Positions 29,350 to 62,400 of a DNA stretch of 64,000 nt are shown in pieces. Location of the stretch: NCBI GenBank assembly GCA_048538235.1, contig JBLYPX010000001.1, positions 136,013-200,012 on the forward strand, given 5' to 3'. The stretch comes from Candidatus Komeilibacteria bacterium (lineage in GTDB: Bacteria; Patescibacteriota; Patescibacteriia; UBA1558). Below the pieces are notes generated by a model. That model searched no databases, had not been told where the DNA came from, and was given only the letters and a program-made list of their open reading frames with translations. The translations under genes and the position numbers were made by a program. Within the stretch, counting starts at the first letter, position 1. Each line of letters begins with the position of its first letter.

Positions 29350-29350
29350 A

Positions 29351-46754: not shown

Positions 46755-46800
46755 AAATAGTTTTGACAAAACTATTTATTTGTGTTAAATTATATTTGAA
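46755..46800 (+). promoter_or_regulatory. Perfect 11-1-11 palindrome AAATAGTTTTG-A-CAAAACTATTT embedding a TTGACA -35-like hexamer, followed 17 nt later by TAAATT; candidate rpsU promoter/operator or weak hisS terminator
   Basis: Exact reverse-complement arms at 46755-46765 and 46767-46777. The element lies between the hisS stop and the rpsU start. Confidence 0.35.
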
Positions 46801-46840
46801 TTTAATTATTAAACATTAATCAGATTGGGGGTGAAAACCT

Positions 46841-47089: not shown

Positions 47090-47535
47090 TGTCATTATTA
47101 CAACAAATAGATAAAGATAGATTAGAAGCAATGAAGGCTCAAGAAGAGCTTAAGTTGTCTACTCTTAGAATGCTATCTTCTTCTATTAAAAATGCTCAAA
47201 TTGCTAAGAAAGCAGAACTGACAGACGAGGAAGTATTAAAGGTTTTGCGAACTGAGAAAAAGAAGAGAATAGAAGCTGCTGAAGGCTTTACAAAAGGTGG
47301 CAAACCAGAATTAGCTGAGCAAGAAATGAAAGAATTAGGCTTTATTGAAGCTTATTTACCTAAAGCAATGTCAGAAGAAGAATTAAATGGCATTGTGTCT
47401 AAGGTTTTGTCAGAAGGTAATTTTACTGAAATGTCGCAGTTTGGACAGGCTATGGGCGCTGTTATGAAAGAAGTGGCAGGTCGGGCTGATGGACAGGCTG
47501 TACAAGCAAAAGTAAAAGAACTTTTGAATAAATAA
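47089..47535 (+). CDS. yqeY: GatB/YqeY domain protein
   Basis: YqeY-like helical protein, commonly encoded next to rpsU. Length 148 aa. Confidence 0.65.
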   Translation: MSLLQQIDKDRLEAMKAQEELKLSTLRMLSSSIKNAQIAKKAELTDEEVLKVLRTEKKKRIEAAEGFTKGGKPELAEQEMKELGFIEAYLPKAMSEEELNGIVSKVLSEGNFTEMSQFGQAMGAVMKEVAGRADGQAVQAKVKELLNK

Positions 47536-47564: not shown

Positions 47565-50486
47565 ATGCTTTTTTTAAAGCGTAAATACTTTATTAAAATG
47601 AGAACTGTTTTAGTGTTAGCTATGCTTTTTGTAACAGTTCTTTTTTTATTCCCTTCAGGTGTTTTAGCGTCAACAGACTTTGGTTTAGCTGATGCTAATC
47701 CAGGTTTAGGCGATACTGACTTAAAGCAAATTATAGTAAATATTATACAAATAGCATTAGGCTTTATTGGGCTTATTGCTGTTATTTTTATACTATATGC
47801 GGGTTTTGTTTGGATGACAGCTGGTGGGGCTGCAGATAAAGTAGATAAAGCTAAAAAAATATTAATAAGAGCAGCAATTGGATTAGTAATTGTATTATCC
47901 TCTTATGCTATAGCAACCTTTATATTTAATGCTATTGGTTGGTCAACTGGAATAGATATGGATGGAACTAGCAGGGATAGATCATATTATTATTCGGGTG
48001 GTTTAGCTGGCGGTGTTATTCAGTCTCATTATCCAGCTAGAGGAGCAACAGGTATTCCAAGAAATGTTTCTATTGTTGTTACTTTTAAAGAATCTATGGA
48101 TGCAGACTCTATCATCTCTGGCGGTCAGTTAACAGATAATATTACTATTGTAGATCAATTTGGAGATGAAGTAGCGGTTGCATCTGCTGAGACAGTGGAT
48201 AATTATTCCTTTTTAATAAACCCAACAGAGCCAGATTATTTAGGAACAGATGCAGATAATATTACCTATGTAGTAAGTTTGGGTTCAGGTATATTAAAGT
48301 CCAATGGAGATCCAGCTTTTGGCAATTTAGGTTCATATGAATGGCAATTTACAACCTCAACAGACTTAGATGTTTCTCCACCTAGAATAGTTTCTGTTTT
48401 ACCAGGGGATGCTAGTACTAATCCAAGAAATGCAGTTGTACAAATTAATTTTAATGAAGCAATTAATCCACTGAGTGTGGCTGGTGATACAGCCGATGGT
48501 TTTGATAATATTATTGCTAGTAATACAGATGGTACAGTTGTAATAAACGGTAAATATACTATTGCTAATGAGTATAAAACAGTTGAATTTTTAACAGATG
48601 ATTTATGTGGTACTAATTCTTGTGGCGGCGATGTATATTGTTTACCTGGTGCTGAGGAATTAGCCTTTAATGTTAAAGCTTCAACTTTAGAAGCAATTAT
48701 CTTTGATGGAGCTGTAGATATGGTTGGTAATTCTTTAGATGGTAATGCTGATGGTCAGGCTGAAGGTCCTGGCGTGGATGATTATGAATGGTCTTTTAAT
48801 ACAACAAATAATGTAGATTTAAGCCCACCTAGTGTTGTTTCTGTAACACCTGGAGTTTCTTCAAATAGTGTAAGCACAAGGGCTAATGTAAAAGTTTCTT
48901 TCGATAAATTAATGATGCTTTCTTCTTTAAACGCAGATTCTTTAATGATTGACCAAGGAGTTAATTATTGGATTAGTAGTACTAATAAAGAAAATCACAC
49001 AGAAAGCTATATTAAACATGATGAATTTGGTGAGTATGTAACATATAATCCACTAGTTACAAATGAGTGTAGAGATTTATACCAGAATTGTTTTAATCCA
49101 ACTTCTGGTCCTGGAGATTTTAGAATTGGTGGAGATGATACAGATAATACTTGGGCGGCCGGATCAAAACTTGGAGATATTAATGATACTCAAGTGCCCG
49201 GACAATTAAGATTAAATTTTAAAGGTGCAGATACTCCATATTTATGGGTAGCTAGGTCTAATTTAGATCAGGTTGTAAGGGTTAGTACAGCTGATGGTAG
49301 TATCACTGGTCCATATATAGTAGGAGATAATCCATCTAGAACATCTGTGGATTCTTATGGCAGAGTATGGGTAGCAAATAGGAATTCTAATGATATTACA
49401 GTTATTTTAACTGATGCGGAGGGAAATGAATTATTGAATGAAACCTTTTCAACTTCACCAGCTAATGGTCCAAGAGGTGTGGCTGTAGATATTAATAATG
49501 ATGTTTGGGTGGCAGGCGGGTGTTATGTAGTAAAGTTGAGTGGTCAAACAAATACTTTAGGAGACAGATTAACCTATTTAAATAAACAGGGTGGTTGTCG
49601 TGCTTATGGAGCGGTTATAGATCGTGATGGACGCTTATGGATACCAGATAGAAATACTGGTAGAGGTTCTGTAATAGATACAGAAACAGCTACAGTAATT
49701 GCTACACCTATGATTGGAAGAGTTGGTCAGTTGTATGGGATAACAGCTGATCCAGATGGAAATATTTGGGAGGCAAATTCGTGGGGTGCGTCAACAGTGT
49801 CAAAGGTTGATGGTTCAGATTATAGCTATGTTGAGTATAGTACTGGTGGTGGTGCACCAAGAGGTGTGGCTGTAGATAAGAATGGCAATATTTGGGTTAC
49901 GAATTGGAGCTTGAATAAAGTTGCGCATTTACGACCAGACGGTACTCTAATAGATCTCTATCCAACAGGTAGTGGGCCACTTGGTGTTTCAGCAGATGCG
50001 GATGGATATGTTTGGGTGGTGAATTATAGTGGTGGTGGACCAGCACCAAGAAACTATACTAATTGTTCTGGTGGAACAACTACAAAATATGATATGGAAG
50101 ATGGTACTCCTATTGGCACATATTGTGTTGGTGGCAATCCTTATACATATAGCGACATGACTGGTTTTGGCTACCAGAGTGTAGTAAAGGGATTAGTAAG
50201 TGGCGAGTGGACATCAAGTGCTATTGATTTGGAAGGTTTATCTAGTGTGGGTGGATTATTTATTCATGGTGATATCCCAGTTGGAGCGAGTGTTAAAATG
50301 CAGGCTAGAGGAGCTGGTTCACAAGCGGGTCTTGCTGAAACCACTTGGCAGGATGTTGCTAGTGATGGAACAGTTAGTATTACAAATGTTTCTTGGTTGC
50401 AGATAAAGCTAGAGCTGCAGTCTGTTCGTATCAATGTGACGCCATCAATAAATTATATAAGTATCAATAAAATAAGCTTAGAATAA
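47565..50486 (+). CDS. Giant surface protein 1 (973 aa): N-terminal T4SS-pilin-like (VirB2/TrbC-like) two-helix module, Ig-like domains, and a C-terminal six-bladed beta-propeller (Vgb-lyase/NHL-like repeats)
   Basis: Signal peptide ...VLA|STDFG. Hairpin helices 'IALGFIGLIAVIFILYAGFVWMTAGG' and 'AIGLVIVLSSYAIATFIF' separated by 'AADKVDKAKKILIR'. 'SPPRIVSV/ SPPSVVSV' Big-like domains. Repeats such as 'PRGVAVDxNGNIWVTN' and 'GITADPDGNIWEAN'. Start may be M at 47598. Confidence 0.65.
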   Translation: MLFLKRKYFIKMRTVLVLAMLFVTVLFLFPSGVLASTDFGLADANPGLGDTDLKQIIVNIIQIALGFIGLIAVIFILYAGFVWMTAGGAADKVDKAKKILIRAAIGLVIVLSSYAIATFIFNAIGWSTGIDMDGTSRDRSYYYSGGLAGGVIQSHYPARGATGIPRNVSIVVTFKESMDADSIISGGQLTDNITIVDQFGDEVAVASAETVDNYSFLINPTEPDYLGTDADNITYVVSLGSGILKSNGDPAFGNLGSYEWQFTTSTDLDVSPPRIVSVLPGDASTNPRNAVVQINFNEAINPLSVAGDTADGFDNIIASNTDGTVVINGKYTIANEYKTVEFLTDDLCGTNSCGGDVYCLPGAEELAFNVKASTLEAIIFDGAVDMVGNSLDGNADGQAEGPGVDDYEWSFNTTNNVDLSPPSVVSVTPGVSSNSVSTRANVKVSFDKLMMLSSLNADSLMIDQGVNYWISSTNKENHTESYIKHDEFGEYVTYNPLVTNECRDLYQNCFNPTSGPGDFRIGGDDTDNTWAAGSKLGDINDTQVPGQLRLNFKGADTPYLWVARSNLDQVVRVSTADGSITGPYIVGDNPSRTSVDSYGRVWVANRNSNDITVILTDAEGNELLNETFSTSPANGPRGVAVDINNDVWVAGGCYVVKLSGQTNTLGDRLTYLNKQGGCRAYGAVIDRDGRLWIPDRNTGRGSVIDTETATVIATPMIGRVGQLYGITADPDGNIWEANSWGASTVSKVDGSDYSYVEYSTGGGAPRGVAVDKNGNIWVTNWSLNKVAHLRPDGTLIDLYPTGSGPLGVSADADGYVWVVNYSGGGPAPRNYTNCSGGTTTKYDMEDGTPIGTYCVGGNPYTYSDMTGFGYQSVVKGLVSGEWTSSAIDLEGLSSVGGLFIHGDIPVGASVKMQARGAGSQAGLAETTWQDVASDGTVSITNVSWLQIKLELQSVRINVTPSINYISINKISLE

Positions 50487-53400
50487 TGAATAAACGTTAT
50501 TCAAAATATATAGTCCCAGTTATCACAATCATTTTATTAATGGTTCCTTTTGCTATATTCGCTTCTACAGATTTTGGTATATCTGATGTAGATGTTGGAC
50601 TAGGGGATAATGATGTAAAAAGTATTGCAACGAATATAATAAGTATAGTTTTAAGTTTTTTGGGTATTATTGCAGTTGGTTTTGTTATTTATGCTGGATT
50701 TCTATGGATGACAGCTGGTGGTAATGCAGACAGAGTAGATAAAGCTAAAAAGATTTTAATAAGAGCGGCTATTGGTATAGTTATTATTTTATCCTCTTAT
50801 GCAATTGCTAGTTTTGTAATAAGTAGTATTAGTGGTGCTACGGGCGATGGTACTGATGGAACGGGTGGTACAAATCCTCCAGGTGGTGGCTTTGGTGGAG
50901 GAGAAGCTAATTTAATTATTAGAAATTGGCAACCATATGATGGTGCTACTGGCACAGCTAGAAATATATTAGTAAGAGTATATTTTAATAAAACAATAGA
51001 CGCGTCTTCTGTAGCAAGTAGTGATTTTACTTTTACTAATACTTCAAATAATACAGCAGTTAATTTTAATGTTACTGTTGTTGGAAGTCGTATAGATATT
51101 CAACCTTTAATTGCTTGTGAGGTTGAAGGAGTGGATTATTGTTTAGGCAATACTCAGGGTTATACAGTAAGTGTAGCTAATGGTTCAATTACATCGCTTG
51201 ATAACAAAGATTTAGTATGTACTACTGGTTGTTCAACAGATTTTGTTACTAGTGATTATATTGATGTTATGCCACCAGTTGTTTCACTGGTTAACCCACA
51301 AGATAATGATACATTTTCTGTAGCTGCTAATGTACCAATTGAAGCCCAAGCAACGGATGATAGAGGTATGGTAGCAGCCCTAACATTTTTAGCAGACAAT
51401 GAAGAAGTTTTGCCAGAGGGCACAGATGGTGCTGAGCCTTGGTTAGGATTGTTTAGTACCGCTGCATATGATGAGGGGGATAGTATAGATATTAGTGCAG
51501 TAGCAGAAGATTTAAGTGGTAATATTGGCAGATCAGGGGCAGTAGATATTCGCATACTCCCTGAGCACTGTTTTAACCAAACTAAAGATGCTGATGAAAC
51601 AAATATAGATTGTGGTGGTTCTTGTGGAGCTTGTTTAGGGGAGAGTTGTAATAGTAGTTCGGGTGTAGATAGTTGTGAACCAAATGATGCCTTGTGTGGT
51701 CAGGGAGTGTGCAATTTAGATTGCATCTGTGCTTCAGCTCCAATAATAACAAATATATCTCCAGACAATGGTGCAGTTGGTAATTATATAACTATAATTG
51801 GCGAAGAATTTGGTAGTTCAACCGGTCAGGTTGTTTTCTTAGGCAGTGCTGATTTTGGCGATGAGATTGTCTCTTCATTAGCAGGTTGTGATACAGCATG
51901 GTCACCATGGCAAGTAATTGTTGAAGTTCCAGAAGGTGTAGTATCTGGGGGAATAAAGATAATTACGAATTCAGGAAGTTTTGACACCACTTTAGATGAT
52001 AGAGGTTGGCAAGGAGATTTTACACTAAACGAAACTGTTAGACCGGGTATTTGTGGAATTACACCAGAAGCTGGCACAGCTTTAAGTACTGTTGATATAG
52101 CTGGTACGCAGTTTGACGAAAGTAAAGACAGGGTTGTTATTGGTGGTGTTAGCGTTTCTAATTCAGATATATCTTTATGGTCAAATAATAATATCACTTC
52201 CTTGGTTCCAAATTTACAACAAGGGAAAGTATCTGTTGCAGTTGGTGTGGGAGATGAATTAAGTAATCCAGTTCAATATGAAGTTGTTCCAGATATATTA
52301 GTTCCATCTATATCATATATAGAGCCAGATAATGGACCAGTTGGTACATATATTACTATTCACGGAAATAATTTTGGGTATAATGAGTCAAATGTATTAG
52401 TTAATTTTGTTAATAATAGTACTACTATCCCAGCAGATATAGATTTCCCAGAAATGTGTGGAGATTACTCTGTGGAGAATACAGAGATTGTGGTTAAGGT
52501 TCCAGAGGGTGTTACTTTAGGATTATGGAATGTAGTTGTAAATAGAGATTTGAAAGATAGCCAACCAGCAAGTTTTGATGTTAATGAAGACGTGCTGTCT
52601 CCAGGTCTTTGTTTATTAGAGCCAAATAATGGTCCAGTTGGAACTATTATTGATGCTTATGGAGAAGGTTTTGGTTCAACTGGTCAGATTTCCTTTTTCG
52701 ATAATATAATAGCCGCTATTAGTAATTGGACAGGCATACATATTGGTTCTCAAGTTCCAGCAGCAGCTAGTACTGGTCCTGTACAAGTTACATCTGGATC
52801 TGGTGGAGTATCTAATTCAATTAATTTTGCAGTTGGTAGTTGTGATGCTAATAGTTGCTCAGTGGGTGATGAGTGTTGTTCAGATGGTATTTGTCGTGAA
52901 ATTGGCTTATGTGAACAATCTCTTGGTGCTGGTGAATATATTTGGTCATTTACAACTGGTCAACAATTACCACCATTTATAGTAGAAGAAGTTTGGCCAT
53001 TATGTGATGAAGCTTGTATTAATACAATGATCGGTGTGAAGTTTAGTAATCCAGTAGATTTAGAAAGTCTGACAGATATTAGCGTAGACGTTAAACAATG
53101 TACAGATGAGAATTGTTCAGCTTTTGTTACAGAAGTTGGTTATACAGAAAATGATGTACCAGTTGGCTATTATGATGACACAAACTATATCCTAAGCATT
53201 AACCCATCTGCAAATTTAGTGCCACAAACATATTATAGGGTGGTGCTTAAATCTGGATCATTAGGAATCGTTAACACAGAAGGTGGTTATTTAGAAAATA
53301 TGAATTATTCAAGTTCAGGTGGTGAGGTAGATAGTTATTCTTGGATTTTTAGAACAGGTGTTGATGAGTGTACTTTAGATAATGTAGAAGTTTTACCAGA

Positions 53401-56400
53401 TGAACGTACTATTACTTCTCAGGAAGAAAGATTAAATATGTCTGCTTATGCATATTCTGAGCCAGATGATTGCTCTCCTCGTGGTCAAATGCTTGATCCT
53501 GCAGAATTTGCTTGGACATGGCAATCTACAAATGTAGGTACAGCAACAGTAGCCGGAACTTTGAATGAGGGAATAGTAACTCCTATTTGGGGTCATCCAG
53601 CAGATGTAAGTATTATTTCTACAGCCGACGGTGTTAGTGGTAATGCTCAAATTACTGTAGATATGGATATTCCAAGAATAGATAATATATCTCCAGATAA
53701 TGGAATGATTCAGGCTGACTTAAAAACTTATGTAACTGTACATGGAGATAATTTTGGAGACGAGCAAGGTTCTACAGTTGTTCTAGTGGGTGGCATTGAG
53801 GCAAAGATTGCAGATTGTTCAAGTGCTTGGTCAAATACACAAATAGTAATTGAAATGCCATTATCTACTAGCACTGGAGATAGAATTAAAATAATAAAAA
53901 CAGGTGGGGATGATGAATCAGATCCTTTTACTGTTAATAGTATTATTCGTCCAGCGCTTTGTAGTATAGATCCAAATTATGGAATAGAGGGAACAAGCGT
54001 TACTCTAGAAGGATATAATTTTGGGGATACACAAAATGATGGCATGGTTTTCTTTGATCAATTAGGAGTAGATAGTATAAGTAGTTGGTCAAACACTAAG
54101 ATAAAAGCATCTGTACCAGCTAATGCTGCTACAGGTCCGGTTACAGTTAATGTGTTAGGCAATGATTCAAATTCATTAGTCTTTTCTTTAGAACCATATA
54201 TTAGTGGTCTAAATCCAGACAATGGAGCAGTAGATAGTTATGTCACAGTTTACGGTGGTAATTTTGGTGACGAGCAGGGTAGCGGTTATGTATTAATTGG
54301 TGGTCGAAGAGCATATCTTGCCCCATGTTTAGGCAGCTGGTCTAATACAAGTATTATTGTTCAAGTGCCAAGTAGTTTAAGTCTTGGTAATAGGAAGGTT
54401 CAAGTTATTACACATTATGGCATTGGTAGTAATGAGGTAAATTATGAGGTAAAAGATGTTCCAGCTAATCCACTATTATGTGAAGTTAATCCTAATTGGG
54501 CTGCTAATAATGAGCAGGTTGGTTTATTAGGAGATAATTTAGGTAGAGCTCCTCGTTTATCTGATCAAATAGAAGTAGATACAGATTTGGGAGCAAGTTA
54601 CACAAATTCTTCTGGTAATTCATGCATGAGTAATAATGGTTCATATGTAAGTGGTTGTTCAAATTATTGGGTTGAGTACCAGTTCAATTTTACAGATAGT
54701 AATTATTATAATGCTTGGGCAGAAACCAGTAATTATAGTACAGATTTAACGGATCAAAGTATTTACCACAACGTTAATATATATATTGATGGCACATACG
54801 CTGGTTATTTTAGTAATATAGCTTCCCTTGATCATCAGTTTGGTGGCGTAGATTTAGGTTGGGTAAATGCTGGTGTTCATACAATTAGATATTATTGGAC
54901 AAATGATTGGTGTGGTGGTTGTAGTAATGGAACGGGGGATTCAAATATTAGGATTTACAATGTTGGTATTAATACAGGAATACCAACTAGCTACCCAGTG
55001 TTTACAAGAAACTACACAGCTTCTACTGAGGGTTGGTCAAACAGTAGTGTGTTAACACGTATAGATAGTGAAATACAGTCTGGTCCAGTTTCTGTTATTA
55101 AAGAAGTGGTTACTGGCCAGCAGTGCGCTGGCTTCCATATTGGTAGTTGGTGTCCAGGAGGCGTTTATGAAGATATTACAGAGAATATTGAAAGTAATAG
55201 TGTAGATTTTAATAAAGGATGTGTAATTGGAACAACTTCATCTCGAGAAGAAAATTATATTCCAACTGTTGCTGCTAATAGCGAAGCTGTTGGTACATTA
55301 GCAACCGATGGTACATATATCTATGGTAAGAGTTGGAGTAGTTATGATGAGTATGATGTAGTTATATCTAAGATAGGTACTGGTTATAATAATACAGTAC
55401 TGGGAGAAGACTATGGAGATTTAGCAATAGTTTCTAGCAGTATTACCATGACTTATCATCCAGATGGTTATATATACAATGGTTATTCATCAGATGGTCA
55501 TAGTTTACAGCGTATAAATGTTGCTACTGGGGTTGTAGATAACAGTGTTGTGATTACAGATGGTTTATTAAACAGAAATACTGGTAATACTTATTCAGAG
55601 GCTAGGGGTGACAACTTAGTAACCTCAGACGGAACATATATATATAATTTAGCGTTTGGAACCCATGCTTGTCCAAATAATTATTCTAGTCGCTGTTATG
55701 ATGGATTTAAAGTAAGGGTATTTGATCCAATGAATAATTGGAAGTTAGTTAGAGAGTGGGAAACAACTACAAATGGATCTTTTTATACCGATGGTATTGT
55801 AGCTGATGGTAAATATATTTACGCCATTGAGTGGGGTGGTTTACATAGAATACGTATGATGGATATTCAGACTGGTGAATATATTGCTCAGTGGATATCT
55901 GAACAAGGCAGGCCAACTGGTCAGGGTAATGATATTATTTCTGGTCAGTATGATTGGGTTAATGACAGAATATGGCTAGGTGATTTGGTTGATCATAGTA
56001 GATATCCTGGCCCAGCTTATATATATAAATATACTAGCTGTCACGACTATGACGTGAATGACATTATAATAGAGGATGAAGGTTATTGTGGAGATGGACT
56101 CATTGCTTCAGGCGAAACTTGTGATGACGGCAATACTGTAAGCGGGGATGGCTGTTCTAATGTTTGTGAGATAGAATTAAGTGATCTTCAGGCAGATATT
56201 AATTATGAGGTTGGTTGGAAATATTGGAGTAGTAATAATTGGGTCCATGTAGATTTTAGAGATACATATTCAAATCCAGTTTTGATACTAAGTCCAGTTA
56301 AACACGAAGGTGGTGACACTGCTACCTTTAGAATAAAGAATTTATCTAGTTCTGGTTTTGATTTTAGATTACAAGAATCTAATAGTCATGATGATCCTCA

Positions 56401-59400
56401 TTGTTGTGATAAAGAAGTCTATTATTTTGTAGCTGAAGCAGGTGTTTATCAATTAGAAGGCGGTATAACAATTGAAGCTATGAATACTGTTCTTGATTCA
56501 GTTACACCAAATTATACTCAGCTTCCTTATGATATTGAATTTACAGAAGTTCCTACAACATTATCTCAGGTAATTACAAGTGGTGATGGCAATGATCCTA
56601 ATTTTGATCCAAAAGGAACTATTAATTATATAAAGACAAGACAGAATAATGTTTCGGCTAATAGTTTTTATATTGCTTTAGAAACAGACACTACTTATTC
56701 AACTCATGTACCAGAAACAGTAAGTTGGTTAGCCATAACTCAAACAGATGGCAATTTAAATAATAGTTTATTTGAATCAAAAACTATTAATAATCTTATT
56801 AATAATGACACTTCAAATATTACTTTTGATAATTCTTTTGCTAGACCAACATTTTTTGCAAATAGTTTAACTATAAATGATCCAGCTCCTGGTGTTTTAC
56901 GATGGATAGCTCTAGAACCTACATCGGTTGGTGTGCGTTTTGAGAATGATGACAGTTCTATTCACGCAACTCCAGAAGATATTAATTATTTAGTTATTAA
57001 TCTACCCGAGAATATTGATCCACCAGCACCAGATACATGTGGTAATGGCGAAATTGAAGCTGGTGAAACTTGTGATAGTTGTCCAGACGATGTTGGCGAA
57101 TGTAGTGATAGTGATTTGTGTGGAAACTTTAGTTTAGACACTGGTGAAGCTTGTGATATTAGTGAAGTTGGTGATCCAATATTAGGTGGACAGACTTGTG
57201 ATTCTTTAGAAGGTTTTTCTGGTGGTAACTTAGATTGTTCTGTGAATTGTGAATTAATAACAGATGCATGTGTTATTGGTAATCCAGCAAGTAATATTTG
57301 TTTAAACACAGAGATATCTGCTGAATTTGATTCATTAATGGATCAAAGTAGCTTTGCCGGTAATGTTCATTTTGAAAAGGTCACTAATACTTGTGAGACA
57401 GGTTCAAATATTGGCAATGCGTGTGATACAGACGAAGATTGTGGTGATGGTGTTTGTGATCTAGATGTAGTAGTTAGTTATGATTTAGAGAATTTGCCAC
57501 CAAATGATTCTCAATACTCAAAGTTATATATATATCCAGAAAATGGTCTATTAGATATTAATTCTGAATACAGAGCAACAGTAAGGGGTGGAACTAGTGG
57601 TGTTCAAGATATTGAAGGTTATACTTTAGCTGCGGATTATGTTTGGCCATTCTATACTGGAGATACAGAGTGTTTAATAAGTAGAGTGGAAATTGAACCA
57701 AGTAGTTATCAATTTAATAGTGCAGATGAAATAGTTAACTTCACAGTTCATGGATATGATGAAAATGGTATTTCTGTTATAGGAGATTATTCATGGAGTA
57801 TTCAAGGTAATGCAGATTTATTAAATATAGTTGGAGGAAATACCCAGACTGTACAAGTTTCCCCAACAGATACTGGTAATGGTGAGTTAAGTTTAGAAGC
57901 TAGTGTATATGCTAGCGAAGATTCACAAGGTGTGGCTCAAGCTCCAATAGATATATTTATGTGTAATATACCGTGGAATTATGAGAATAAAACATATAAC
58001 TTTAAGACAAGATATTGTAGGGGTGAAGGTGTAAACCATGTATATAATAGTGGTTTTGAAATGGATGATAACAGCGACTTAAGACCAGATGTTTGGTTTG
58101 ATGATATCTATGATGAAGATTGGCAGGATATTTCTTTAGTAAGTTCAGATTTAGAAGGTGGTGGAAATTATGCTGTGCAAATAAATAATTTACAGGACGA
58201 TCGTTCTGTAGGAGATAGAACAGGTATTGCTTCAGGAATAATAGATGTTAAAGATGCTATCTATACTTTATCTGCTCAGATTAAGGGTGAAACTAATGGT
58301 CAATTAGCATATTTTGGTCTTAAATTTATGAATGAAAATGGTCAGGCACTTGGCGGAAACGGTGGCTACCATTATCCAGTACTTAACCACGCTTCAATAT
58401 CTGATGAATGGACATTGTATAGTGCTAGTTTTAGGCCATCTGAATTATTTACTGGTACTGAGAAGGTTCAGGTTGTATTTATTCTTGCAGGTAGTGATGA
58501 ATTAGATAAACATGTAGCCTGGATAGATAATGTTCAATTAGAGTTAGGTTCAGAAGTTAGTGTTTATGAAGAATCTAATTTATTACCATCATTAAATATA
58601 TCTCCAGATGCTGCTTCTGGTGATGAGCTGCTAAATAGATTGTTCTTACAATCTGACTACAATATTCCAGATGCCATTGGTTTAAGAGTGTTTACTAACT
58701 TTGAACACCAAGCACCAATTGTTTGGTATCAAGATAATGTTACGAATATTGGTAATCCAGCTACTATAGATGTTGGCGGTTATTCAGCATTACAAGAGGG
58801 TAGAACAACTTATGTGAATGCTGCTAATAATAGTAGTAATAATATTTATACAAACATATTTGTTTTGTCATATACAGATGGTGCTAATGCAACTACGCAA
58901 GATATATTTACTCAGATGTACGAGAATTGGACGTTCAATAGTAATATAGATTCATATTATGAGAAACAACAACTCGCTAGAGACACAAAACGTTTTGAGA
59001 ATATTGTTCAAATGTCTGAGCAATTAGACGATTATTATCAATTAAATGGTGGTTATCCTCAATTACAGGCAGGGACATATTTAGCTGGTACAACAGTTTC
59101 TGTTTGGGATTCTTGGAACGCTACTTTTGGTGCAGAGCTTGGTGGTGTGCCAGTAGATCCAATCAATGAACATGGATTATGTAATGGTGCATACGATCCA
59201 ATAACCTGTTGGAATCCAGACGATTTGCGTTATGTTTGCCCATTAAACTCCTATGTTTACAGATATGACTATGTAAATTCGGATTATTATCTATATAGTA
59301 ATTTTGAATATGAAGGGGTTGTTTGGAAGGGAGATTTTGATTTGACCATAGCTAGTAATCCGCAGTGCGATAATGTAATTTTAAACAATGGTGTTATGTC

Positions 59401-59431
59401 TTCCATTTCTCCAGCACAAAATATTGAATAA
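50486..59431 (+). CDS. Giant surface protein 2 (2981 aa): paralogous T4SS-pilin-like N-terminal module, at least 8 IPT/TIG domains, Myxococcus-type Cys-rich repeats, beta-rich regions and a CBM4/9-like domain
   Basis: N-terminus about 65% identical to the upstream protein. IPT/TIG consensus 'P.I..I.PDNG.VG.YITI.G.NFG' recurs at least 8 times. 'CGDGLIASGETCDDGNTVSGDGCSNVCE' and 'CGNGEIEAGETCDSC...' Cys repeats. 'FEMDDNSD...GNYAVQI...VAWIDNVQLE' carbohydrate-binding-module-like jelly roll. Confidence 0.65.
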   Translation: MNKRYSKYIVPVITIILLMVPFAIFASTDFGISDVDVGLGDNDVKSIATNIISIVLSFLGIIAVGFVIYAGFLWMTAGGNADRVDKAKKILIRAAIGIVIILSSYAIASFVISSISGATGDGTDGTGGTNPPGGGFGGGEANLIIRNWQPYDGATGTARNILVRVYFNKTIDASSVASSDFTFTNTSNNTAVNFNVTVVGSRIDIQPLIACEVEGVDYCLGNTQGYTVSVANGSITSLDNKDLVCTTGCSTDFVTSDYIDVMPPVVSLVNPQDNDTFSVAANVPIEAQATDDRGMVAALTFLADNEEVLPEGTDGAEPWLGLFSTAAYDEGDSIDISAVAEDLSGNIGRSGAVDIRILPEHCFNQTKDADETNIDCGGSCGACLGESCNSSSGVDSCEPNDALCGQGVCNLDCICASAPIITNISPDNGAVGNYITIIGEEFGSSTGQVVFLGSADFGDEIVSSLAGCDTAWSPWQVIVEVPEGVVSGGIKIITNSGSFDTTLDDRGWQGDFTLNETVRPGICGITPEAGTALSTVDIAGTQFDESKDRVVIGGVSVSNSDISLWSNNNITSLVPNLQQGKVSVAVGVGDELSNPVQYEVVPDILVPSISYIEPDNGPVGTYITIHGNNFGYNESNVLVNFVNNSTTIPADIDFPEMCGDYSVENTEIVVKVPEGVTLGLWNVVVNRDLKDSQPASFDVNEDVLSPGLCLLEPNNGPVGTIIDAYGEGFGSTGQISFFDNIIAAISNWTGIHIGSQVPAAASTGPVQVTSGSGGVSNSINFAVGSCDANSCSVGDECCSDGICREIGLCEQSLGAGEYIWSFTTGQQLPPFIVEEVWPLCDEACINTMIGVKFSNPVDLESLTDISVDVKQCTDENCSAFVTEVGYTENDVPVGYYDDTNYILSINPSANLVPQTYYRVVLKSGSLGIVNTEGGYLENMNYSSSGGEVDSYSWIFRTGVDECTLDNVEVLPDERTITSQEERLNMSAYAYSEPDDCSPRGQMLDPAEFAWTWQSTNVGTATVAGTLNEGIVTPIWGHPADVSIISTADGVSGNAQITVDMDIPRIDNISPDNGMIQADLKTYVTVHGDNFGDEQGSTVVLVGGIEAKIADCSSAWSNTQIVIEMPLSTSTGDRIKIIKTGGDDESDPFTVNSIIRPALCSIDPNYGIEGTSVTLEGYNFGDTQNDGMVFFDQLGVDSISSWSNTKIKASVPANAATGPVTVNVLGNDSNSLVFSLEPYISGLNPDNGAVDSYVTVYGGNFGDEQGSGYVLIGGRRAYLAPCLGSWSNTSIIVQVPSSLSLGNRKVQVITHYGIGSNEVNYEVKDVPANPLLCEVNPNWAANNEQVGLLGDNLGRAPRLSDQIEVDTDLGASYTNSSGNSCMSNNGSYVSGCSNYWVEYQFNFTDSNYYNAWAETSNYSTDLTDQSIYHNVNIYIDGTYAGYFSNIASLDHQFGGVDLGWVNAGVHTIRYYWTNDWCGGCSNGTGDSNIRIYNVGINTGIPTSYPVFTRNYTASTEGWSNSSVLTRIDSEIQSGPVSVIKEVVTGQQCAGFHIGSWCPGGVYEDITENIESNSVDFNKGCVIGTTSSREENYIPTVAANSEAVGTLATDGTYIYGKSWSSYDEYDVVISKIGTGYNNTVLGEDYGDLAIVSSSITMTYHPDGYIYNGYSSDGHSLQRINVATGVVDNSVVITDGLLNRNTGNTYSEARGDNLVTSDGTYIYNLAFGTHACPNNYSSRCYDGFKVRVFDPMNNWKLVREWETTTNGSFYTDGIVADGKYIYAIEWGGLHRIRMMDIQTGEYIAQWISEQGRPTGQGNDIISGQYDWVNDRIWLGDLVDHSRYPGPAYIYKYTSCHDYDVNDIIIEDEGYCGDGLIASGETCDDGNTVSGDGCSNVCEIELSDLQADINYEVGWKYWSSNNWVHVDFRDTYSNPVLILSPVKHEGGDTATFRIKNLSSSGFDFRLQESNSHDDPHCCDKEVYYFVAEAGVYQLEGGITIEAMNTVLDSVTPNYTQLPYDIEFTEVPTTLSQVITSGDGNDPNFDPKGTINYIKTRQNNVSANSFYIALETDTTYSTHVPETVSWLAITQTDGNLNNSLFESKTINNLINNDTSNITFDNSFARPTFFANSLTINDPAPGVLRWIALEPTSVGVRFENDDSSIHATPEDINYLVINLPENIDPPAPDTCGNGEIEAGETCDSCPDDVGECSDSDLCGNFSLDTGEACDISEVGDPILGGQTCDSLEGFSGGNLDCSVNCELITDACVIGNPASNICLNTEISAEFDSLMDQSSFAGNVHFEKVTNTCETGSNIGNACDTDEDCGDGVCDLDVVVSYDLENLPPNDSQYSKLYIYPENGLLDINSEYRATVRGGTSGVQDIEGYTLAADYVWPFYTGDTECLISRVEIEPSSYQFNSADEIVNFTVHGYDENGISVIGDYSWSIQGNADLLNIVGGNTQTVQVSPTDTGNGELSLEASVYASEDSQGVAQAPIDIFMCNIPWNYENKTYNFKTRYCRGEGVNHVYNSGFEMDDNSDLRPDVWFDDIYDEDWQDISLVSSDLEGGGNYAVQINNLQDDRSVGDRTGIASGIIDVKDAIYTLSAQIKGETNGQLAYFGLKFMNENGQALGGNGGYHYPVLNHASISDEWTLYSASFRPSELFTGTEKVQVVFILAGSDELDKHVAWIDNVQLELGSEVSVYEESNLLPSLNISPDAASGDELLNRLFLQSDYNIPDAIGLRVFTNFEHQAPIVWYQDNVTNIGNPATIDVGGYSALQEGRTTYVNAANNSSNNIYTNIFVLSYTDGANATTQDIFTQMYENWTFNSNIDSYYEKQQLARDTKRFENIVQMSEQLDDYYQLNGGYPQLQAGTYLAGTTVSVWDSWNATFGAELGGVPVDPINEHGLCNGAYDPITCWNPDDLRYVCPLNSYVYRYDYVNSDYYLYSNFEYEGVVWKGDFDLTIASNPQCDNVILNNGVMSSISPAQNIE

Positions 59432-59488: not shown

Positions 59489-62400
59489 ATGAAAAGAAAA
59501 ATTATTACAATTATGACTGTTATGGCATTTATTTTTACTTTAATGCCACAATCATATGTTAGTGCTCAAACAATCGATCAGTGTGAGCAAGTTTTAGCAT
59601 CAGGACAACCAGAATTGTCTACTTGGGAAGATGATGCAGGAGCAACGCCTGCTAATAATTTTTATTTCATGGATAAACTGGGTGACTGGATAAAGCTCAG
59701 ACTTTTTTCTTTTACCAAGGATGCAAGAATTAATACTTTGTTAGATCAGGCACAAGAAAGAGTAGGCGAGCTTGAACGTTTACAGAGGCAGAACAATCTT
59801 AAACCTAGTTATGTTAATAGAATTGTAGATAGCTACAATAATATTATGGCAGAAGTTAGTACGAGATTATCTAATATGCAGGGCGATGGTGTAGATATGA
59901 CAGATATAATCTCTAGAGTAACAATACTAAGTGCTAAAAATAAAACTATTATAGCTGGTATTTTATCTAAGGTTTCTGCACAGAACTATAATACAATACA
60001 GTCTGCATATAATCAGTCTGGTACAGCGTTTTGTGAAGTTGTAGATAGTTGGGTTTCAAGAGAGAATCAATGTAATGATACTATTCTATTAACACAAGAG
60101 AGTTCTAATTCATTTAATAATATTGCAGGCGAGATAGCCAATGTTGGAGAAACAAGTTCTTCAATAGAAAGTTCATTTGAACAAGTTAGTTCGTATTTAG
60201 ATAGAGTGGAAAATATTAGTGTAGATATAAATAATAGTAAAGAAGATTTTAGTGGAGCTGTTAGTAGTTCTAGTTTGAGCTTAAGTGATAAAGAACAAGT
60301 ATTAAATGATAAGCTAGATGATTTTAGAGGGGATTATTTTTACCTTTTAAATAATCAACCTCAAGTAGATACTGCTATTAGATCTATCATAAGCTATAGA
60401 TTAAACGACAACCCTAGAAGTTTAGTTGCAAGAGCTAGGGCTAGCGCTGCTTTAATGGATGTTGCTTTAAACAATGCAGAAGTGGGAGCAGACATTGCAT
60501 ATATTGAAAATATAATGTCTGTTAATCTGTCTGAAGATAAAGATTTAAATGATTTATTAGATAATTTAAAGTCTGCAAAAGAAAGTAGTTTGCAAACTGA
60601 AATAAATACGCTATCTTCATTAGTTTCTTCACAACAGGATGAAATTGAAGCATTAGAAGAAAGTAAAAATGTCTGTAGGAGTTTAAAGAACGATTTTTCA
60701 GAAATATTAGACAGGTTAGATACTGGAAGATTTTCTCAGGCTAGAAATGGTGTCTTAGCTTTACAAGCTGAAGCTAGTAATTTAAATAGCACATATTTAC
60801 CAGCTTGTGGAATGATGCCAGTTATAGACACTCTTTATGATATTCTAATTAATGGTAATGCTTTGGACCCAAATAATAGTTGTAGTAGTCAATCATATAT
60901 AGATAATTATGTAGCTGAGATAGTTGCTTGGGGAGAGGATCGTTTAGCATTATGGGATACAATGTTAGATCAACACGATGGTATTGTAGATGAATTGAAC
61001 AGTCAACTAGATTCATATGAAATGATAAGTGTAAATAAGGGATCAGTTGCAACAAGTTTAGATTCACACTTTTCTTCCTATGCAAATGTTAATGCTGCAC
61101 AAGTTTCTTCAGCTGAATTAGATAGCATTCAAACTGAAATAGGAGATTTAGAAAGAAGATTAAATTCGGCTGAATCAGATGTGGTGGATTATGAAGGATA
61201 TAAGAATAATGCTAATGCGTCTTTACAGGTTGCTAATAGTTCATATGTTGAAGCGCAAACAGCTGTAAGTAAGGCAGAGTCAGAATTGCAAACAGCAGAT
61301 ACTAATGTGAAGCAGGCACAAGCCGCAGCAGATCAAGCAAGAGCAGATTACCTAAAAATAGAACAATCTTTAAATGAACTTAATACAATTAAAAACAGTA
61401 CATTATCTGAATTAAACGCTGCTAAAGATTCGCTTGATGCATTAAATACAGAAAAAGTTGATTTAGAGAAACAGATTGATACTTTAAAAGTTTCTTTAAA
61501 TAATAATTTTAGTATAGCTTCTATTAATCAAGATAACTTTCAATTGGAAGAAGAAATCTTATTGGACCTATCTGAAGATATTAATTTTGATAGAAGTGCA
61601 GTTGAACTAGAGGCTTTAGATGCAGAATTAAAAAATTTAAATGAAGACATAGTGTTAAAATCTGCAGAAGTAGATCAATTACAGTCAAATTACGACAAGG
61701 TGTTAGCAGACTATAATTCTACTTTAACAGAATACAATAATAAAGAAGACGATGTGGTTCAGGCAGATTTTGGAGTATATGCAACTACGCAGGTTTATAC
61801 ACAAAAAGAAAGTGCATATAATTCTGCAGTATCTGGTTTGAATACAATCTCTAACAATTTAAATAGTCTTCAAGCTAGTTATGATGCAGCTGTATCAGAT
61901 TATACAGAAGCTGTTGTTTTAAGAGATATTATTAGTAGTGATTTAGATAATAAGAATAATGAGTATAATAATGCGGTTGCTAAAGCTGTGAAACTTGAAG
62001 TTATTAGACAGGAACTAGATTCGTTCATTACAGATAAATTTGATAGCACAGTCAGTAATTATAGAACTAGCGTTGATTCTTTAGGAGTTTTAAACAATGA
62101 TTGGAAAACTGTTGCCTTTGAATATAATGAAATAGCAGATAATATTGCAGACTTAAGAACTACTATGAATGGAACAAATCTTGCTAATATTAGAACTGAG
62201 CTTAATAGCATGAAGACATTAGCGGGCAACTTGGAAACTATGGTTGAATATAATATGCCAGCTCAACAAATTAGTAATCAATTAGATACAATAGATAGAT
62301 TAGTAAGTATGAGAATGCTTGGACAAGCTAGGATAGATAATATCAAAGCATCGGTTCAAACGAGTGTGGTAAATTTACAGAATATTACTTGTTCCGAAGC

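What the first reader, a model, noticed from the sequence alone, without database searches (positions are those of the whole stretch)
47565..59431. Two tandem giant proteins whose N-termini are VirB2/TrbC-pilin-like hairpins fused to enormous adhesin-like ectodomains
Both ORFs (973 and 2981 aa) start with a cleavable signal peptide followed about 30 aa later by two hydrophobic helices separated by a short basic loop (...YAGFVWMTAGG-AADKVDKAKKILIRAAIG...). That topology and size match conjugative/T4SS pilins, not ordinary type IV pilins or sortase substrates. Instead of ending there, each continues into a huge extracellular array: one with Ig-like domains and a beta-propeller, the other with IPT/TIG domains, Cys-rich repeats and a CBM-like domain. 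A pilin-like membrane/filament module covalently carrying giant binding domains would be an unusual surface-display or attachment organelle. It might mediate host or partner-cell contact in an episymbiont. I do not recognise this as a characterised system. The T4SS-pilin similarity is my inference from topology and a W-M-x-x-G-G motif, not a database hit.
Basis: partly seen in the sequence, partly recalled or inferred. Interest (0 to 1): 0.8.

Follow-up and report, generated by a model that had tools for sequence, protein, structure and literature searches.

The report
Giant surface proteins on conjugative-pilin anchors
Two neighbouring genes of an ultrasmall (Patescibacteria) bacterium encode huge cell-surface proteins that begin with the small membrane hairpin from which conjugation-type pili are built; the pair is conserved side by side in at least 80, probably hundreds, of related species, which points to an undescribed attachment device.

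Summary
Observation confirmed. ORFs 47565-50486 (973 aa, A) and 50486-59431 (2981 aa, B) each begin with a signal peptide and a two-helix hairpin. Ig-like/beta-propeller (A) or Ig-like/TIG/Cys-rich (B) arrays follow.

Both hairpins score above Pfam's threshold for T4SS_pilin (PF18895) and near the threshold for TrbC/VirB2.

New findings:
- The pair is conserved. It sits in the same place (lepB-hisS-rpsU-yqeY-A-B) in sampled relatives, and 69 of 72 species-level genomes with enough DNA have both genes adjacent.
- The hairpin is the best-conserved part of both proteins (49-50% identity, against 17-26% for the signal peptide).
- The hairpin evolves in concert within each genome (A-B 61% within, 48% between genomes). 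The adjacent Ig domain does not. Free pilins of a sister genome share the same hairpin flavour.
- No T4SS machinery lies nearby, but three pair-carrying genomes are published as VirB4-positive.

Small VirB2-like pilins of Patescibacteria are published; I found no description of giant fusions.

Best reading (0.45): modular T4SS pilins that co-assemble with free pilins to display adhesive fibres. Main rival (0.33): the hairpin is only a membrane anchor. New variant of a known kind; interest 0.65.

The parts
44826..45428 (+). Signal peptidase I (Peptidase_S26) gene. It is the first protein gene of the conserved same-strand block lepB-hisS-rpsU-yqeY-A-B. tRNA-Val lies just upstream at 44719-44795.
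   Evidence: Sequence. Orthologous genes carry PF10502 in L001-L006. Found upstream of the pair in 48 of 65 loci with enough upstream DNA. tRNA.
45439..47535 (+). hisS (45439-46743), rpsU/S21 (46841-47089) and yqeY (47089-47535): housekeeping genes that always precede the pair.
   Evidence: Pfam. Synteny. Counts: S21 in 60, YqeY in 53 and HisRS in 53 of 65 loci.
47565..50486 (+). Gene A, 973 aa: signal peptide, VirB2-type hairpin, Gly-rich linker, three Big_5 Ig-like domains, a six-bladed-type beta-propeller and a C-terminal beta-rich domain.
   Evidence: Identical protein P0121 is annotated 'Ig-like domain-containing protein [Candidatus Komeilibacteria bacterium]'.
47565..47669 (+). A: signal peptide (residues 1-35, predicted cleavage VLA|S).
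   Evidence: Sequence. AF2 helix 5-33. Poorly conserved: 17% mean pairwise identity.
47721..47948 (+). A: VirB2/T4SS_pilin hairpin (residues 53-128; helix 53-85, turn GGAA, helix 90-128 starting DKVDKAKK).
   Evidence: PF18895 37.3 bits (cutoff 26.6) and PF04956 27.0 bits. AF2 pLDDT above 90. Most conserved region of the family, 49% identity.
48018..49124 (+). A: three Big_5 Ig-like domains (residues 152-520) with family-invariant motifs HYPxR, CGxNSCG..CLP and YQNC. This is the core shared by all A-type proteins.
   Evidence: Pfam Big_5, 3 stretches. Alignment A1.
49347..50483 (+). A: beta-propeller (Vgb_lyase/SGL/NHL, about residues 595-846) plus a C-terminal domain. Among the homologues listed, the propeller is found only in the closest relatives (the named ones are Komeilibacteria).
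   Evidence: Pfam. Present only in P0121-P0127 among one search hits. Alignment A1.
50486..59431 (+). Gene B, 2981 aa: signal peptide, VirB2-type hairpin, Gly/Thr linker, then a long Ig-like/TIG stalk, a lineage-specific region and a conserved unnamed domain.
50615..50833 (+). B: VirB2/T4SS_pilin hairpin (residues 44-116).
   Evidence: PF18895 33.8 bits and PF04956 29.4 bits (cutoff 27.9). 68% identical to A's hairpin.
50918..54475 (+). B: conserved stalk (residues 145-1330): Big_5, Big_7, a Cys-rich segment, TIG x3, Big_5, TIG x3.
   Evidence: Pfam. Matched in 50-74 of the 74 giant orthologues that matched B, most densely over residues 400-1350.
54533..57235 (+). B: lineage-specific region (residues 1350-2250) with one DUF4215/myxo_disulf Cys-rich repeat. 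It has almost no counterpart outside close relatives and is a candidate specificity region.
   Evidence: Coverage 0-5 of 74 orthologues. Pfam/NCBIfam.
58583..59335 (+). B: conserved unnamed domain (residues 2700-2950). In other lineages it lies internally, at about residues 2000-2400. It also occurs in stand-alone secreted proteins of about 420 aa.
   Evidence: No Pfam, NCBIfam or PDB match.
59489..62917 (+). Gene C, 1142 aa: signal peptide, DUF5667, long coiled coil, three Cys-rich DUF4215/myxo_disulf repeats. It follows B here and in the sister genome only.
62937..63680 (+). Gene D, 247 aa: single-pass membrane protein with TSP3_bac calcium-binding-type repeats. A recurrent downstream neighbour of the pair.
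   Evidence: Pfam. A TSP3 gene follows B in 11 of 17 loci where B is complete.

Best explanation
A and B are modular VirB2-type (type IV secretion system) pilins.

Shown:
- Each starts with a signal peptide and a two-helix hairpin of the T4SS_pilin/TrbC family.
- The hairpin is the most constrained part of the protein.
- The two hairpins evolve in concert within each genome.
- The pair is a conserved, syntenic, chromosomal unit.

Inferred, step 1: the preprotein is exported by Sec and cut by signal peptidase I. That leaves the hairpin in the cytoplasmic membrane with its N-terminus out, its K/R-rich turn in the cytoplasm and its C-terminus out. This is the published topology of F-pilin. Helix 2 then acts as an internal start-transfer signal, and the whole ectodomain ends up outside the cell.

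Inferred, step 2: the hairpin is an assembly module, not a passive anchor. It packs with the genome's other VirB2-like hairpins (A with B, and both with the free small pilins). The VirB4-type machinery encoded elsewhere in the genome handles it. Because pilin C-termini lie on the outside of conjugative pili, the ectodomains can be carried at the tip of, or sparsely along, a pilin polymer.

Inferred, step 3: B forms a fibre that could reach roughly 100 nm, with a conserved Ig/TIG stalk and a lineage-specific distal region. A, a short Ig-like protein, is its conserved partner. Together they would mediate contact with a host or partner cell.
For: Family membership: PF18895 above threshold and PF04956 at threshold for both proteins; NF045849 sub-threshold; confident hairpin model.

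Hairpin constraint:
- Mean pairwise identity is 0.49 (A family, 76 sequences) and 0.50 (B family, 71 sequences).
- The signal peptides, which are also hydrophobic, score 0.17 and 0.26; the ectodomain domains score 0.26-0.47.
- The same conserved positions (LYxGFxWMTxxG...KAKK...IGLxI) occur in A, B and free pilins.

Concerted evolution, specific to the hairpin:
- Within-genome A-B identity is 0.614. Between genomes it is 0.483 (A-B), 0.490 (A-A) and 0.502 (B-B).
- Controls show no such effect: signal peptide 0.255 vs 0.233; first Big_5 0.192 vs 0.189, with a clear orthology signal (A-A 0.41).
- Synonymous sites are near saturation (pS 0.64), so this is not recent gene conversion.

Free pilins:
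- In the sister Komeilibacteria genome, 8 of 9 array pilins rank 1-10 of 75 for similarity to their own genome's A/B hairpins.
- Three other genomes give ranks 5, 15 and 16 of 76.

Machinery:
- VirB4 is present in 2,417 of 3,035 Patescibacteria genomes (PMC12102498).
- It is listed as present in three genomes that carry the pair (my loci L017, L054, L014).

Topology precedent: TraA is cut by LepB, its basic loop is cytoplasmic, and both termini are on the pilus exterior (PMC7555446). [quoted passage not shown]

Conservation: the pair is adjacent in 69 of 72 species-level loci. B has a conserved stalk and a variable distal region.
Against: - No T4SS machinery gene lies in the 64-kb window or within 10 kb of the pair in six Pfam-annotated loci. 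The neighbours are housekeeping genes.
- No pilus made of VirB2-like pilins has yet been seen in any Patescibacterium (PMC12857230).
- A subunit carrying 100-320 kDa would be hard to fit into a tightly packed five-start pilus, except at the tip or at low density.
- Fold searches do not separate the hairpin from generic helical hairpins, and a profile search of PDB sequences finds nothing.
- The co-evolution with free pilins rests on one genome with nine pilins and three weaker cases.
- Universal conservation next to core genes fits a structural envelope role as well as it fits host adhesion.
Confidence: 0.45

Rival explanations
1. Exapted anchor. The pilin hairpin has been recruited as a two-helix membrane anchor only. 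A and B, probably as a heteromer held together by their hairpins, form a T4SS-independent cell-surface fibril rooted in the cytoplasmic membrane. The free pilins and the T4SS are irrelevant to it.
For: The pair is never next to T4SS genes; it sits in a housekeeping block in every locus examined. B alone is long enough to reach beyond the wall without a pilus (domain count). A's stop and B's start overlap here and in the sister genome, which suggests coupled expression. Within-genome matching of the A and B hairpins is what hairpin-hairpin pairing in a membrane would give. The genes are universal and vertically inherited, like envelope components.
Against: A passive anchor should drift as the signal peptide does (0.17-0.26 identity), yet the hairpin is the best-conserved region (0.49-0.50) and keeps the same polar/Gly motif as free pilins. 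Free pilins of the same genome share the genome-specific hairpin flavour. Most A-type proteins have only three Ig domains beyond the hairpin (540-700 aa), which is short for a protein that must cross a wall and any S-layer from the membrane.
Confidence: 0.33
2. Processed precursor. The hairpin is a pro-pilin or export carrier. After export the protein is cut between helix 2 and the first Ig domain, as the C-terminus of TrbC is trimmed during maturation. That would yield a mature pilin and a released, secreted giant protein.
For: C-terminal trimming is part of P-type pilin maturation, and the maturation peptidase TraF belongs to the signal peptidase I family (established knowledge of RP4, not tested here). 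A Peptidase_S26 gene heads the conserved block. A flexible Gly-rich linker follows helix 2 in all family members.
Against: The linker is low-complexity and variable, with no conserved cleavage motif (alignment A1). The S26 gene may simply be the housekeeping lepB. Making a 70-residue pilin from a 2981-residue precursor would be extremely wasteful for a genome that already has small pilin genes.
Confidence: 0.1
3. Envelope architecture. A and B are structural parts of the cell envelope, for example S-layer anchoring or spacing elements. They would have no role in partner-cell contact and no connection to a pilus.
For: Big_5 domains are common in S-layer and envelope proteins (family knowledge, not tested). 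The pair is core, single-copy and next to lytR-cpsA-psr and other housekeeping genes. The N-terminal 1350 residues of B are conserved across the clade.
Against: B carries a 900-residue lineage-specific region and varies in length from 2,400 to 3,500 residues, which is typical of adhesins under diversifying pressure. This reading does not explain the pilin-specific conservation and concerted evolution of the hairpin.
Confidence: 0.08

Closest known systems
VirB2-like pilin arrays of Patescibacteria (Pfam PF18895; essential pilin cluster in the T4SS locus of Southlakia epibionticum; Wang et al. 2023, PMC10633639; Quinonero-Coronel et al. 2025, PMC12102498)
   Same: Same hairpin family by profile score, same signal peptide plus two-helix layout, same conserved motif, same phylum. 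Free pilins of a sister genome resemble the fused hairpins.
   Different: The published pilins are stand-alone proteins in arrays of 2-11 genes (the nine array genes I examined encode 110-222 aa), and the pilin gene lies near virB4 in 1,135 of 1,948 assemblies. A and B are 973 and 2981 aa, carry large ectodomains, form a fixed two-gene unit and sit among housekeeping genes. None of the papers I read mentions long fusions.
Canonical conjugative pilins VirB2 / TrbC / TraA (Pfam PF04956)
   Same: Leader cut by signal peptidase I, two hydrophobic helices, basic cytoplasmic loop, and termini that end on the outside of the pilus (PMC7555446). Profile score at threshold.
   Different: Only borderline sequence similarity. 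No evidence of cyclisation or acetylation. The host is a monoderm. No canonical pilin that I know of carries an ectodomain (my knowledge, not a search result).
Modular type IV pilins, e.g. PilB of Streptococcus sanguinis (PMC8179133)
   Same: Same design idea: a pilin module that enters the filament, with a functional adhesive module grafted onto its C-terminus.
   Different: An unrelated pilin class: a class III signal peptide, a single N-terminal helix and a prepilin peptidase. A and B have no N_methyl motif. The window's own type IV pilin is a separate gene at 32791-33252.
Fibrillar adhesins of Gram-positive bacteria, including the T4SS-associated adhesin PrgB
   Same: Long arrays of Ig-like 'stalk' domains with a variable distal part.
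   Different: Those are wall-anchored by a C-terminal LPXTG sorting signal. A and B end without one (sequence) and are held at the N-terminus by a pilin hairpin. No PrgB-like adhesin was detected in Patescibacteria by Quinonero-Coronel et al..
Extended VirB6 proteins (T4SS membrane subunits with large hydrophilic domains; PMC12857230)
   Same: A T4SS membrane component fused to a large extracytoplasmic domain of unknown role.
   Different: VirB6 is a polytopic channel subunit with five or more helices. It is not a pilin hairpin.
Mbov_0395-family pilin-like conjugal transfer protein of Mycoplasma ICEs (NCBIfam NF045849)
   Same: An 80-residue hairpin profile that aligns end to end with both hairpins. 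It comes from the monoderm MPF-FATA world to which the Patescibacteria T4SS is related.
   Different: Scores of 26-27 bits are below the family cutoff of 40. The Mycoplasma proteins are small.

Membership tests
Pfam PF18895 T4SS_pilin (Patescibacteria-type VirB2-like pilins) | Profile score at or above the curated gathering threshold (26.6 bits) | tested here: met
   A scores 34.1 bits (whole protein) and 37.3 (N-terminus alone). B scores 28.5 and 33.8.
Pfam PF18895 T4SS_pilin (Patescibacteria-type VirB2-like pilins) | Cleavable signal peptide followed by two hydrophobic helices joined by a short turn, with a basic start to helix 2 | tested here: met
   Sequence. AF2 helices 5-33, 53-85 and 90-128 with pLDDT above 90 in the hairpin.
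Pfam PF18895 T4SS_pilin (Patescibacteria-type VirB2-like pilins) | Small stand-alone protein (published arrays of 2-11 genes; the examples examined here are 110-222 aa) | tested here: not met
   A is 973 aa and B is 2981 aa. Even so, 50 of the 150 best hairpin matches in an exhaustive search are single-hairpin proteins longer than 450 aa.
Pfam PF18895 T4SS_pilin (Patescibacteria-type VirB2-like pilins) | Gene located near virB4 or within a pilin array | tested here: not met
   No T4SS gene and no other hairpin ORF in the window. None within 10 kb in L001-L006. This feature holds for only 1,135 of 1,948 assemblies in the literature.
Pfam PF04956 TrbC/VirB2 (canonical conjugative pilins) | Profile score at or above the gathering threshold (27.9 bits) | tested here: inconclusive
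   N-termini alone: A 27.0 bits (just below), B 29.4 bits (above). Whole proteins: 21.2 and 22.0 bits.
Pfam PF04956 TrbC/VirB2 (canonical conjugative pilins) | Fold matches solved VirB2/TraA pilins | tested here: inconclusive
Pfam PF04956 TrbC/VirB2 (canonical conjugative pilins) | Polymerises into an extracellular pilus through a VirB4-containing T4SS | not testable with these tools
   Indirect only. VirB4 is listed as present in three pair-carrying genomes. The hairpin shows concerted evolution with free pilins.
Type IV (T4P/T2SS) pilins | Class III signal peptide / N-terminal methylation motif (PF07963) | tested here: not met
   No N_methyl hit in A or B. The motif is found in a separate gene at 32791-33252.
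Sortase-anchored fibrillar adhesins | C-terminal LPXTG sorting signal with a hydrophobic, basic tail | tested here: not met
   A ends ...INKISLE and B ends ...SPAQNIE, with no sorting signal.
Sortase-anchored fibrillar adhesins | Repeated Ig-like stalk domains plus a distinct distal region | tested here: met
   Big_5, Big_7 and TIG x6. Conserved stalk and lineage-specific distal region.

The most novel reading that the evidence does not exclude
The pair is the adhesive head of a new attachment organelle: a VirB2-type pilus built by a type IV secretion system in a monoderm bacterium, primed, capped or decorated by two covalently fused giant 'modular conjugative-type pilins'. It would be a core, vertically inherited device of a whole class-level clade of uncultivated episymbionts (ABY1: Komeilibacteria, Uhrbacteria, Falkowbacteria and relatives). 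It would also suggest what the pilins and the T4SS, shown to be essential in one cultivated Patescibacterium, are for.
Probability: 0.3. Interest if true: 0.85.

Novelty: new variant of a known kind. Interest (0 to 1): 0.65.

Why it matters
The T4SS and its VirB2-like pilins are essential in the one Patescibacterium where this has been tested, yet what they do is unknown and no pilus made of them has been seen (PMC10633639, PMC12857230, PMC11665869).

This gene pair gives that question a concrete handle. It is conserved in at least 80 species-level genomes. In it, the pilin hairpin is joined covalently to very large, obviously extracellular binding arrays. If the hairpins co-assemble with free pilins, these would be, to my knowledge, the first modular pilins of the conjugative (VirB2) class, and a candidate host-contact device for a large uncultivated clade.

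If the hairpins do not co-assemble, the pair shows that a pilin can be re-used as a sequence-constrained membrane anchor, which is itself undescribed. Either way the proteins are good targets:
- large, conserved epitopes for labelling in cryo-ET;
- a conserved stalk for metaproteomics;
- a variable region for host-range comparisons.

Tried and rejected
- **Word-index search with B's hairpin.** All 120 best hits were small pilins, which suggested that fusions are rare. This was an artefact of only 447 candidates: the search missed even A's orthologues. The exhaustive search overturned it.
- **Look-up of the window's own protein on its contig.** Not on record.
- **Profile search of the hairpin against PDB sequences.** No hits.
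- **A type IV pilin-like head in B's conserved domain.** hhalign against the window's own type IV pilin aligned exactly the expected helix, but at 6.7% probability. Pfam and PDB gave nothing relevant. AlphaFold2 with 8 sequences gave pLDDT 43, which is unusable. The idea stays a lead only.
- **Promoter and terminator scan of 44.4-64 kb.** No excess over shuffles and no terminator between yqeY, A, B and C. The operon structure remains an inference from the gaps.
- **Gene conversion as the cause of A-B hairpin similarity.** Synonymous differences are near saturation (pS 0.64), so recent conversion is rejected. The slightly lower pS within genomes may simply reflect shared codon usage.
- **Amino-acid composition bias as the cause.** Rejected by the signal-peptide and Big_5 controls.
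- **Supplement of the mBio 2024 metatranscriptome paper.** I looked for expression of adjacent pilin-domain genes, but the relevant table is not held.
- **Mobile-element origin.** Rejected, because the pair lies in a conserved housekeeping block in every genome.


Full report
**1. What is there**

The window is low-GC (about 0.33) chromosomal DNA. Protein A is identical to an NCBI protein on an 860,445-bp contig of 'Candidatus Komeilibacteria bacterium', where it is annotated only as 'Ig-like domain-containing protein'. NCBI places that organism in the Patescibacteria/Parcubacteria group.

The two ORFs are exactly as reported: A = 47565..50486 (973 aa) and B = 50486..59431 (2981 aa). A's stop and B's start share one base (TAATG). 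Only 30 nt separate yqeY from A, 58 nt separate B from the next gene, and no terminator-like site lies between them.

Each protein starts with a hydrophobic signal peptide and an AxA-type site (VLA|S, IFA|S). About 17 mature residues follow, then two hydrophobic helices joined by a four-residue turn, with a lysine-rich start to helix 2. AlphaFold2 with a 60-sequence alignment models helices 5-33, 53-85 and 90-128, with pLDDT above 90 across the hairpin.

**2. What the N-terminal module is**

- Both hairpins match Pfam PF18895 (T4SS_pilin) above the curated threshold. On the isolated N-termini the scores are 37.3 and 33.8 bits against 26.6.
- Both match PF04956 (TrbC/VirB2) at the threshold: 27.0 and 29.4 bits against 27.9.
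- NCBIfam adds a sub-threshold, end-to-end match to NF045849, a pilin-like conjugal transfer protein of Mycoplasma ICEs.

**3. The ectodomains**

A:
- three Big_5 Ig-like domains (residues 152-520);
- a Vgb_lyase/SGL/NHL-type beta-propeller (about 595-846);
- a C-terminal domain without a family match.

B:
- Big_5 and Big_7, then a Cys-rich segment;
- three TIG domains, a Big_5 and three more TIG domains, up to residue 1330;
- about 900 residues with only one Cys-rich DUF4215/myxo_disulf repeat;
- another Big_5 and a sub-threshold CBM_4_9-like stretch (E 0.078);
- a conserved unnamed domain at residues 2700-2950.

Neither protein ends in a sortase signal.

**4. Surroundings**

Pfam scans of 44 ORFs of 82 aa or more across the window found no VirB4, VirB6, VirB3, VirB8, VirD4 or relaxase. 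A six-frame HMM search found no other hairpin ORF.

Upstream lie pth, der and lytR-cpsA-psr on the minus strand. On the plus strand come tRNA-Val, signal peptidase I, hisS, rpsU and yqeY, then A and B. Next are gene C, a 1142-aa DUF5667/coiled-coil/Cys-rich protein, and gene D, a TSP3-repeat membrane protein.

**5. The pair is conserved and syntenic**

A full-length search with A gave six full-length orthologues at 46-79% identity. It also gave more than 100 listed proteins of mostly 540-700 aa, nearly all labelled PF18895 + Big_5, from Patescibacteria/Parcubacteria at 35-43% identity over A's first half. The four that lack the PF18895 label still carry the hairpin.

Five of these, from different genomes, were placed on their contigs. 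All show the same order: pth-der-lytR on one strand, then lepB-hisS-rpsU-yqeY-[hairpin+Big_5 protein]-[giant protein of about 2,900-3,500 aa]. Four of the five giants carry a recorded PF18895 N-terminal hit, and my own profile finds the hairpin in all five.

One genome can contribute more than one match. The 80 best are 80 distinct genomes, titled Komeilibacteria, Uhrbacteria, Falkowbacteria, Parcubacteria, Paceibacter or 'Patescibacteria group'.

- Of the 72 loci with at least 1.5 kb downstream, 69 have a second hairpin-bearing ORF directly after the first, usually 1,500-3,500 aa.
- Of the 65 loci with at least 4.5 kb upstream, S21 is present in 60, YqeY in 53, HisRS in 53 and signal peptidase I in 48.
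- A TSP3-repeat gene follows B in 11 of the 17 loci where B is complete.

The beta-propeller of A and gene C are additions found only in the window and its closest relatives; those that are named are Komeilibacteria.

B's first 1350 residues are conserved throughout. Residues 1350-2250 are lineage-specific. The domain at 2700-2950 is conserved, but in other lineages it lies internally.

**6. How common hairpin fusions are**

A first, word-indexed search with B's hairpin listed only small pilins. It had scored only 447 candidates and missed A's own orthologues.

An exhaustive phmmer search of 1.84 billion cluster representatives found 30,346 proteins at E <= 0.001 and 6,834 at E <= 1e-10. The best 150 break down as follows:
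- 40 single-hairpin proteins longer than 1,100 aa (up to 3,996 aa), all with the hairpin at the N-terminus;
- 10 of 451-1,100 aa;
- 13 of 221-450 aa;
- 27 of 220 aa or less;
- 60 proteins with two to eight or more tandem hairpins in one chain.

**7. Is the hairpin more than an anchor?**

Three tests bear on this.

(a) Region-wise conservation. Across 76 A-type and 71 B-type proteins the hairpin is the best-conserved region, with mean pairwise identity 0.49 and 0.50. The signal peptide, an equally hydrophobic membrane segment of the same proteins, scores 0.17 and 0.26. The Ig-like domains score 0.26-0.47.

(b) Concerted evolution. Within a genome the A and B hairpins are 0.614 identical. Between genomes, A-A (0.490), B-B (0.502) and A-B (0.483) are indistinguishable, so there is no orthology signal. 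The controls behave normally. The signal peptide scores 0.255 within and 0.233 between genomes. The first Big_5 scores 0.192 within and 0.189 between, with clear orthology (A-A 0.41). Composition bias is therefore not the cause. Synonymous differences are near saturation (pS 0.64 within genomes), so recent gene conversion is not the cause either.

(c) Free pilins. The sister Komeilibacteria genome has an array of nine small pilin genes on the same 443-kb contig as the pair. Eight of the nine are more similar to their own genome's A/B hairpins than to almost all of 74 other genomes' hairpins (ranks 1-10 of 75). Three other genomes have a small pilin gene between A and B and give ranks 5, 15 and 16 of 76.

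Together these results say the hairpin is under specific constraint and is matched within each genome to the other hairpins.

**8. Machinery**

The literature reports VirB4 in 2,417 of 3,035 Patescibacteria genomes and in 18 of 20 classes (PMC12102498).

Table S1 of that paper lists VirB4 as present in Komeilibacteria RIFOXYD1_FULL_37_29, Uhrbacteria GW2011_GWC2_41_11 and Parcubacteria bacterium Greene0416_36. All three are class ABY1, and they are the genomes of my loci L017, L054 and L014, which carry the pair. The six Komeilibacteria rows shown in the passages retrieved from that table are also all VirB4-positive.

I could not check the window's own genome beyond its 64 kb.

**9. Mechanism**

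Shown: family membership of the hairpin, its topology-compatible sequence, its special conservation and concerted evolution, and the conserved pairing and synteny.

Inferred from established knowledge of F-pilin: leader cut by LepB, basic loop in the cytoplasm, both termini outside the membrane and on the exterior of the pilus (PMC7555446; TrhA abstract). On that model the signal peptide is removed and the hairpin sits N-out/C-out. Helix 2 starts translocation of everything downstream, so the ectodomain is extracellular and would be on the outside of any pilin polymer.

My best reading (0.45) is that A and B are modular VirB2-type pilins. They would co-assemble with each other and with the free pilins under the T4SS, at the tip of a pilin polymer or sparsely along it, and present a long adhesive fibre (B) with a short conserved partner (A).

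Rivals:
- The main rival (0.33) keeps the same topology but makes the hairpin an exapted anchor of a T4SS-independent A-B fibril. It is favoured by the housekeeping context, the 1-nt overlap of the genes and the sheer length of B. It is disfavoured by the pilin-like constraint and by the match to free pilins.
- A precursor that is cleaved after helix 2 (0.10).
- A purely structural envelope role (0.08).

**10. Comparison with what is known, and novelty**

Small VirB2-like pilins and pilin arrays of Patescibacteria are published, and so is their essentiality in Southlakia epibionticum. PF18895-domain genes have been noted among the highly expressed genes of Paceibacterales that parasitise methanogens (PMC10936435).

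None of the papers found by four full-text searches and read here mentions hairpins fused to giant ectodomains, the conserved A-B pair or its synteny (and the readings that followed). Public annotation goes no further than 'Ig-like domain-containing protein' or, for one JGI entry, 'Bacterial Ig-like domain/Type IV secretion system pilin'.

Conceptually the nearest thing is the modular type IV pilin (PilB of S. sanguinis, PMC8179133), but that belongs to an unrelated pilin class. I therefore rate this a new variant of a known kind. It passes the profile test for the T4SS_pilin family. It fails that family's features of small size and T4SS or array context. Its defining behaviour, polymerisation, cannot be tested here.

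**11. Verdict**

The finding is larger than reported: a core, conserved two-gene module of a big uncultivated clade, with quantitative evidence that its pilin hairpins are functionally coupled. Interest is 0.65. It would rise to about 0.85 if pilus display is shown.

Noticed in passing
Not in the window: proteins P0249 (820 aa), P0250 (606 aa), P0285 (1775 aa) and about 57 others among the best 150 hits: 'Polypilins': single polypeptides made of 2 to 8 or more tandem VirB2-like hairpins with a period of about 85-100 residues. Each hairpin keeps the YxGFxxMTxGG...K motif. Many proteins of about 230-260 aa have exactly two hairpins. Covalently chained pilin hairpins are not mentioned in any of the papers I read.
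   Followed up: partly
window 58583-59335 (B residues 2700-2950); stand-alone homologues P0241-P0246: A conserved domain with no Pfam, NCBIfam or PDB match. It is present in about 60 giant B-type proteins, and also in secreted proteins of about 415-430 aa with Cys-rich inserts. It contains a long helix KLxRDxxRLxDLxxIxxxLxxY followed by YPxL..GTYL..WPSW..LPxDPxN, which recalls the head of Gram-positive/CPR type IV pilins. hhalign aligned that helix with the window's own type IV pilin, but at only 6.7% probability, and AF2 failed (pLDDT 43).
   Followed up: partly
window 62937-63680: A 247-aa single-pass membrane protein with a Pro-rich N-terminus and TSP3_bac (thrombospondin type 3-like, calcium-binding) repeats. 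A TSP3-repeat gene follows the giant gene in 11 of 17 loci where this could be judged, so it may be a third conserved member of the unit.
   Followed up: partly
window 59489-62917: A 1142-aa secreted protein: DUF5667, about 700 residues of coiled coil with weak SMC-like matches, and three Cys-rich DUF4215/myxo_disulf repeats of the kind also found in B. It is inserted between B and the TSP3 gene only here and in the sister Komeilibacteria genome.
   Followed up: partly
L007/L008 8414-12451 (sister Komeilibacteria genome, same 443-kb contig as the orthologous pair): An array of nine consecutive small T4SS_pilin genes directly after a solute-binding-protein gene (SBP_bac_1), with no VirB4 within 10 kb. 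A 526-aa protein with no Pfam hit lies next to it on the other strand.
   Followed up: no
window 44719-44795 and 44604-44662: tRNA-Val lies directly upstream of the signal peptidase I gene. The best sigma-70-like site of the region (TTGATT-17-TGnTATAAT) is at 44634-44662, in the divergent gap to lytR. The whole block from tRNA-Val to gene D is on one strand with short gaps, so it may be a single long operon.
   Followed up: no
window 15267-28340: A cell-surface polysaccharide cluster: DUF4012, a Wzz-like protein, Wzy_C, several GT4 glycosyltransferases, a GHL15 + FG-GAP protein and a DUF11 protein. It includes three ORFs with no Pfam match (17904-20858) in a patch of raised GC (0.42 against about 0.33).
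   Followed up: no
window 29552-31225 and 32791-33252: parA-parB are next to a tRNA cluster (Met, Met, Leu at 29142-29437). A separate type IV pilin gene with an N_methyl motif lies at 32791-33252, so the organism also has the type IV pilus class of pilins.
   Followed up: no
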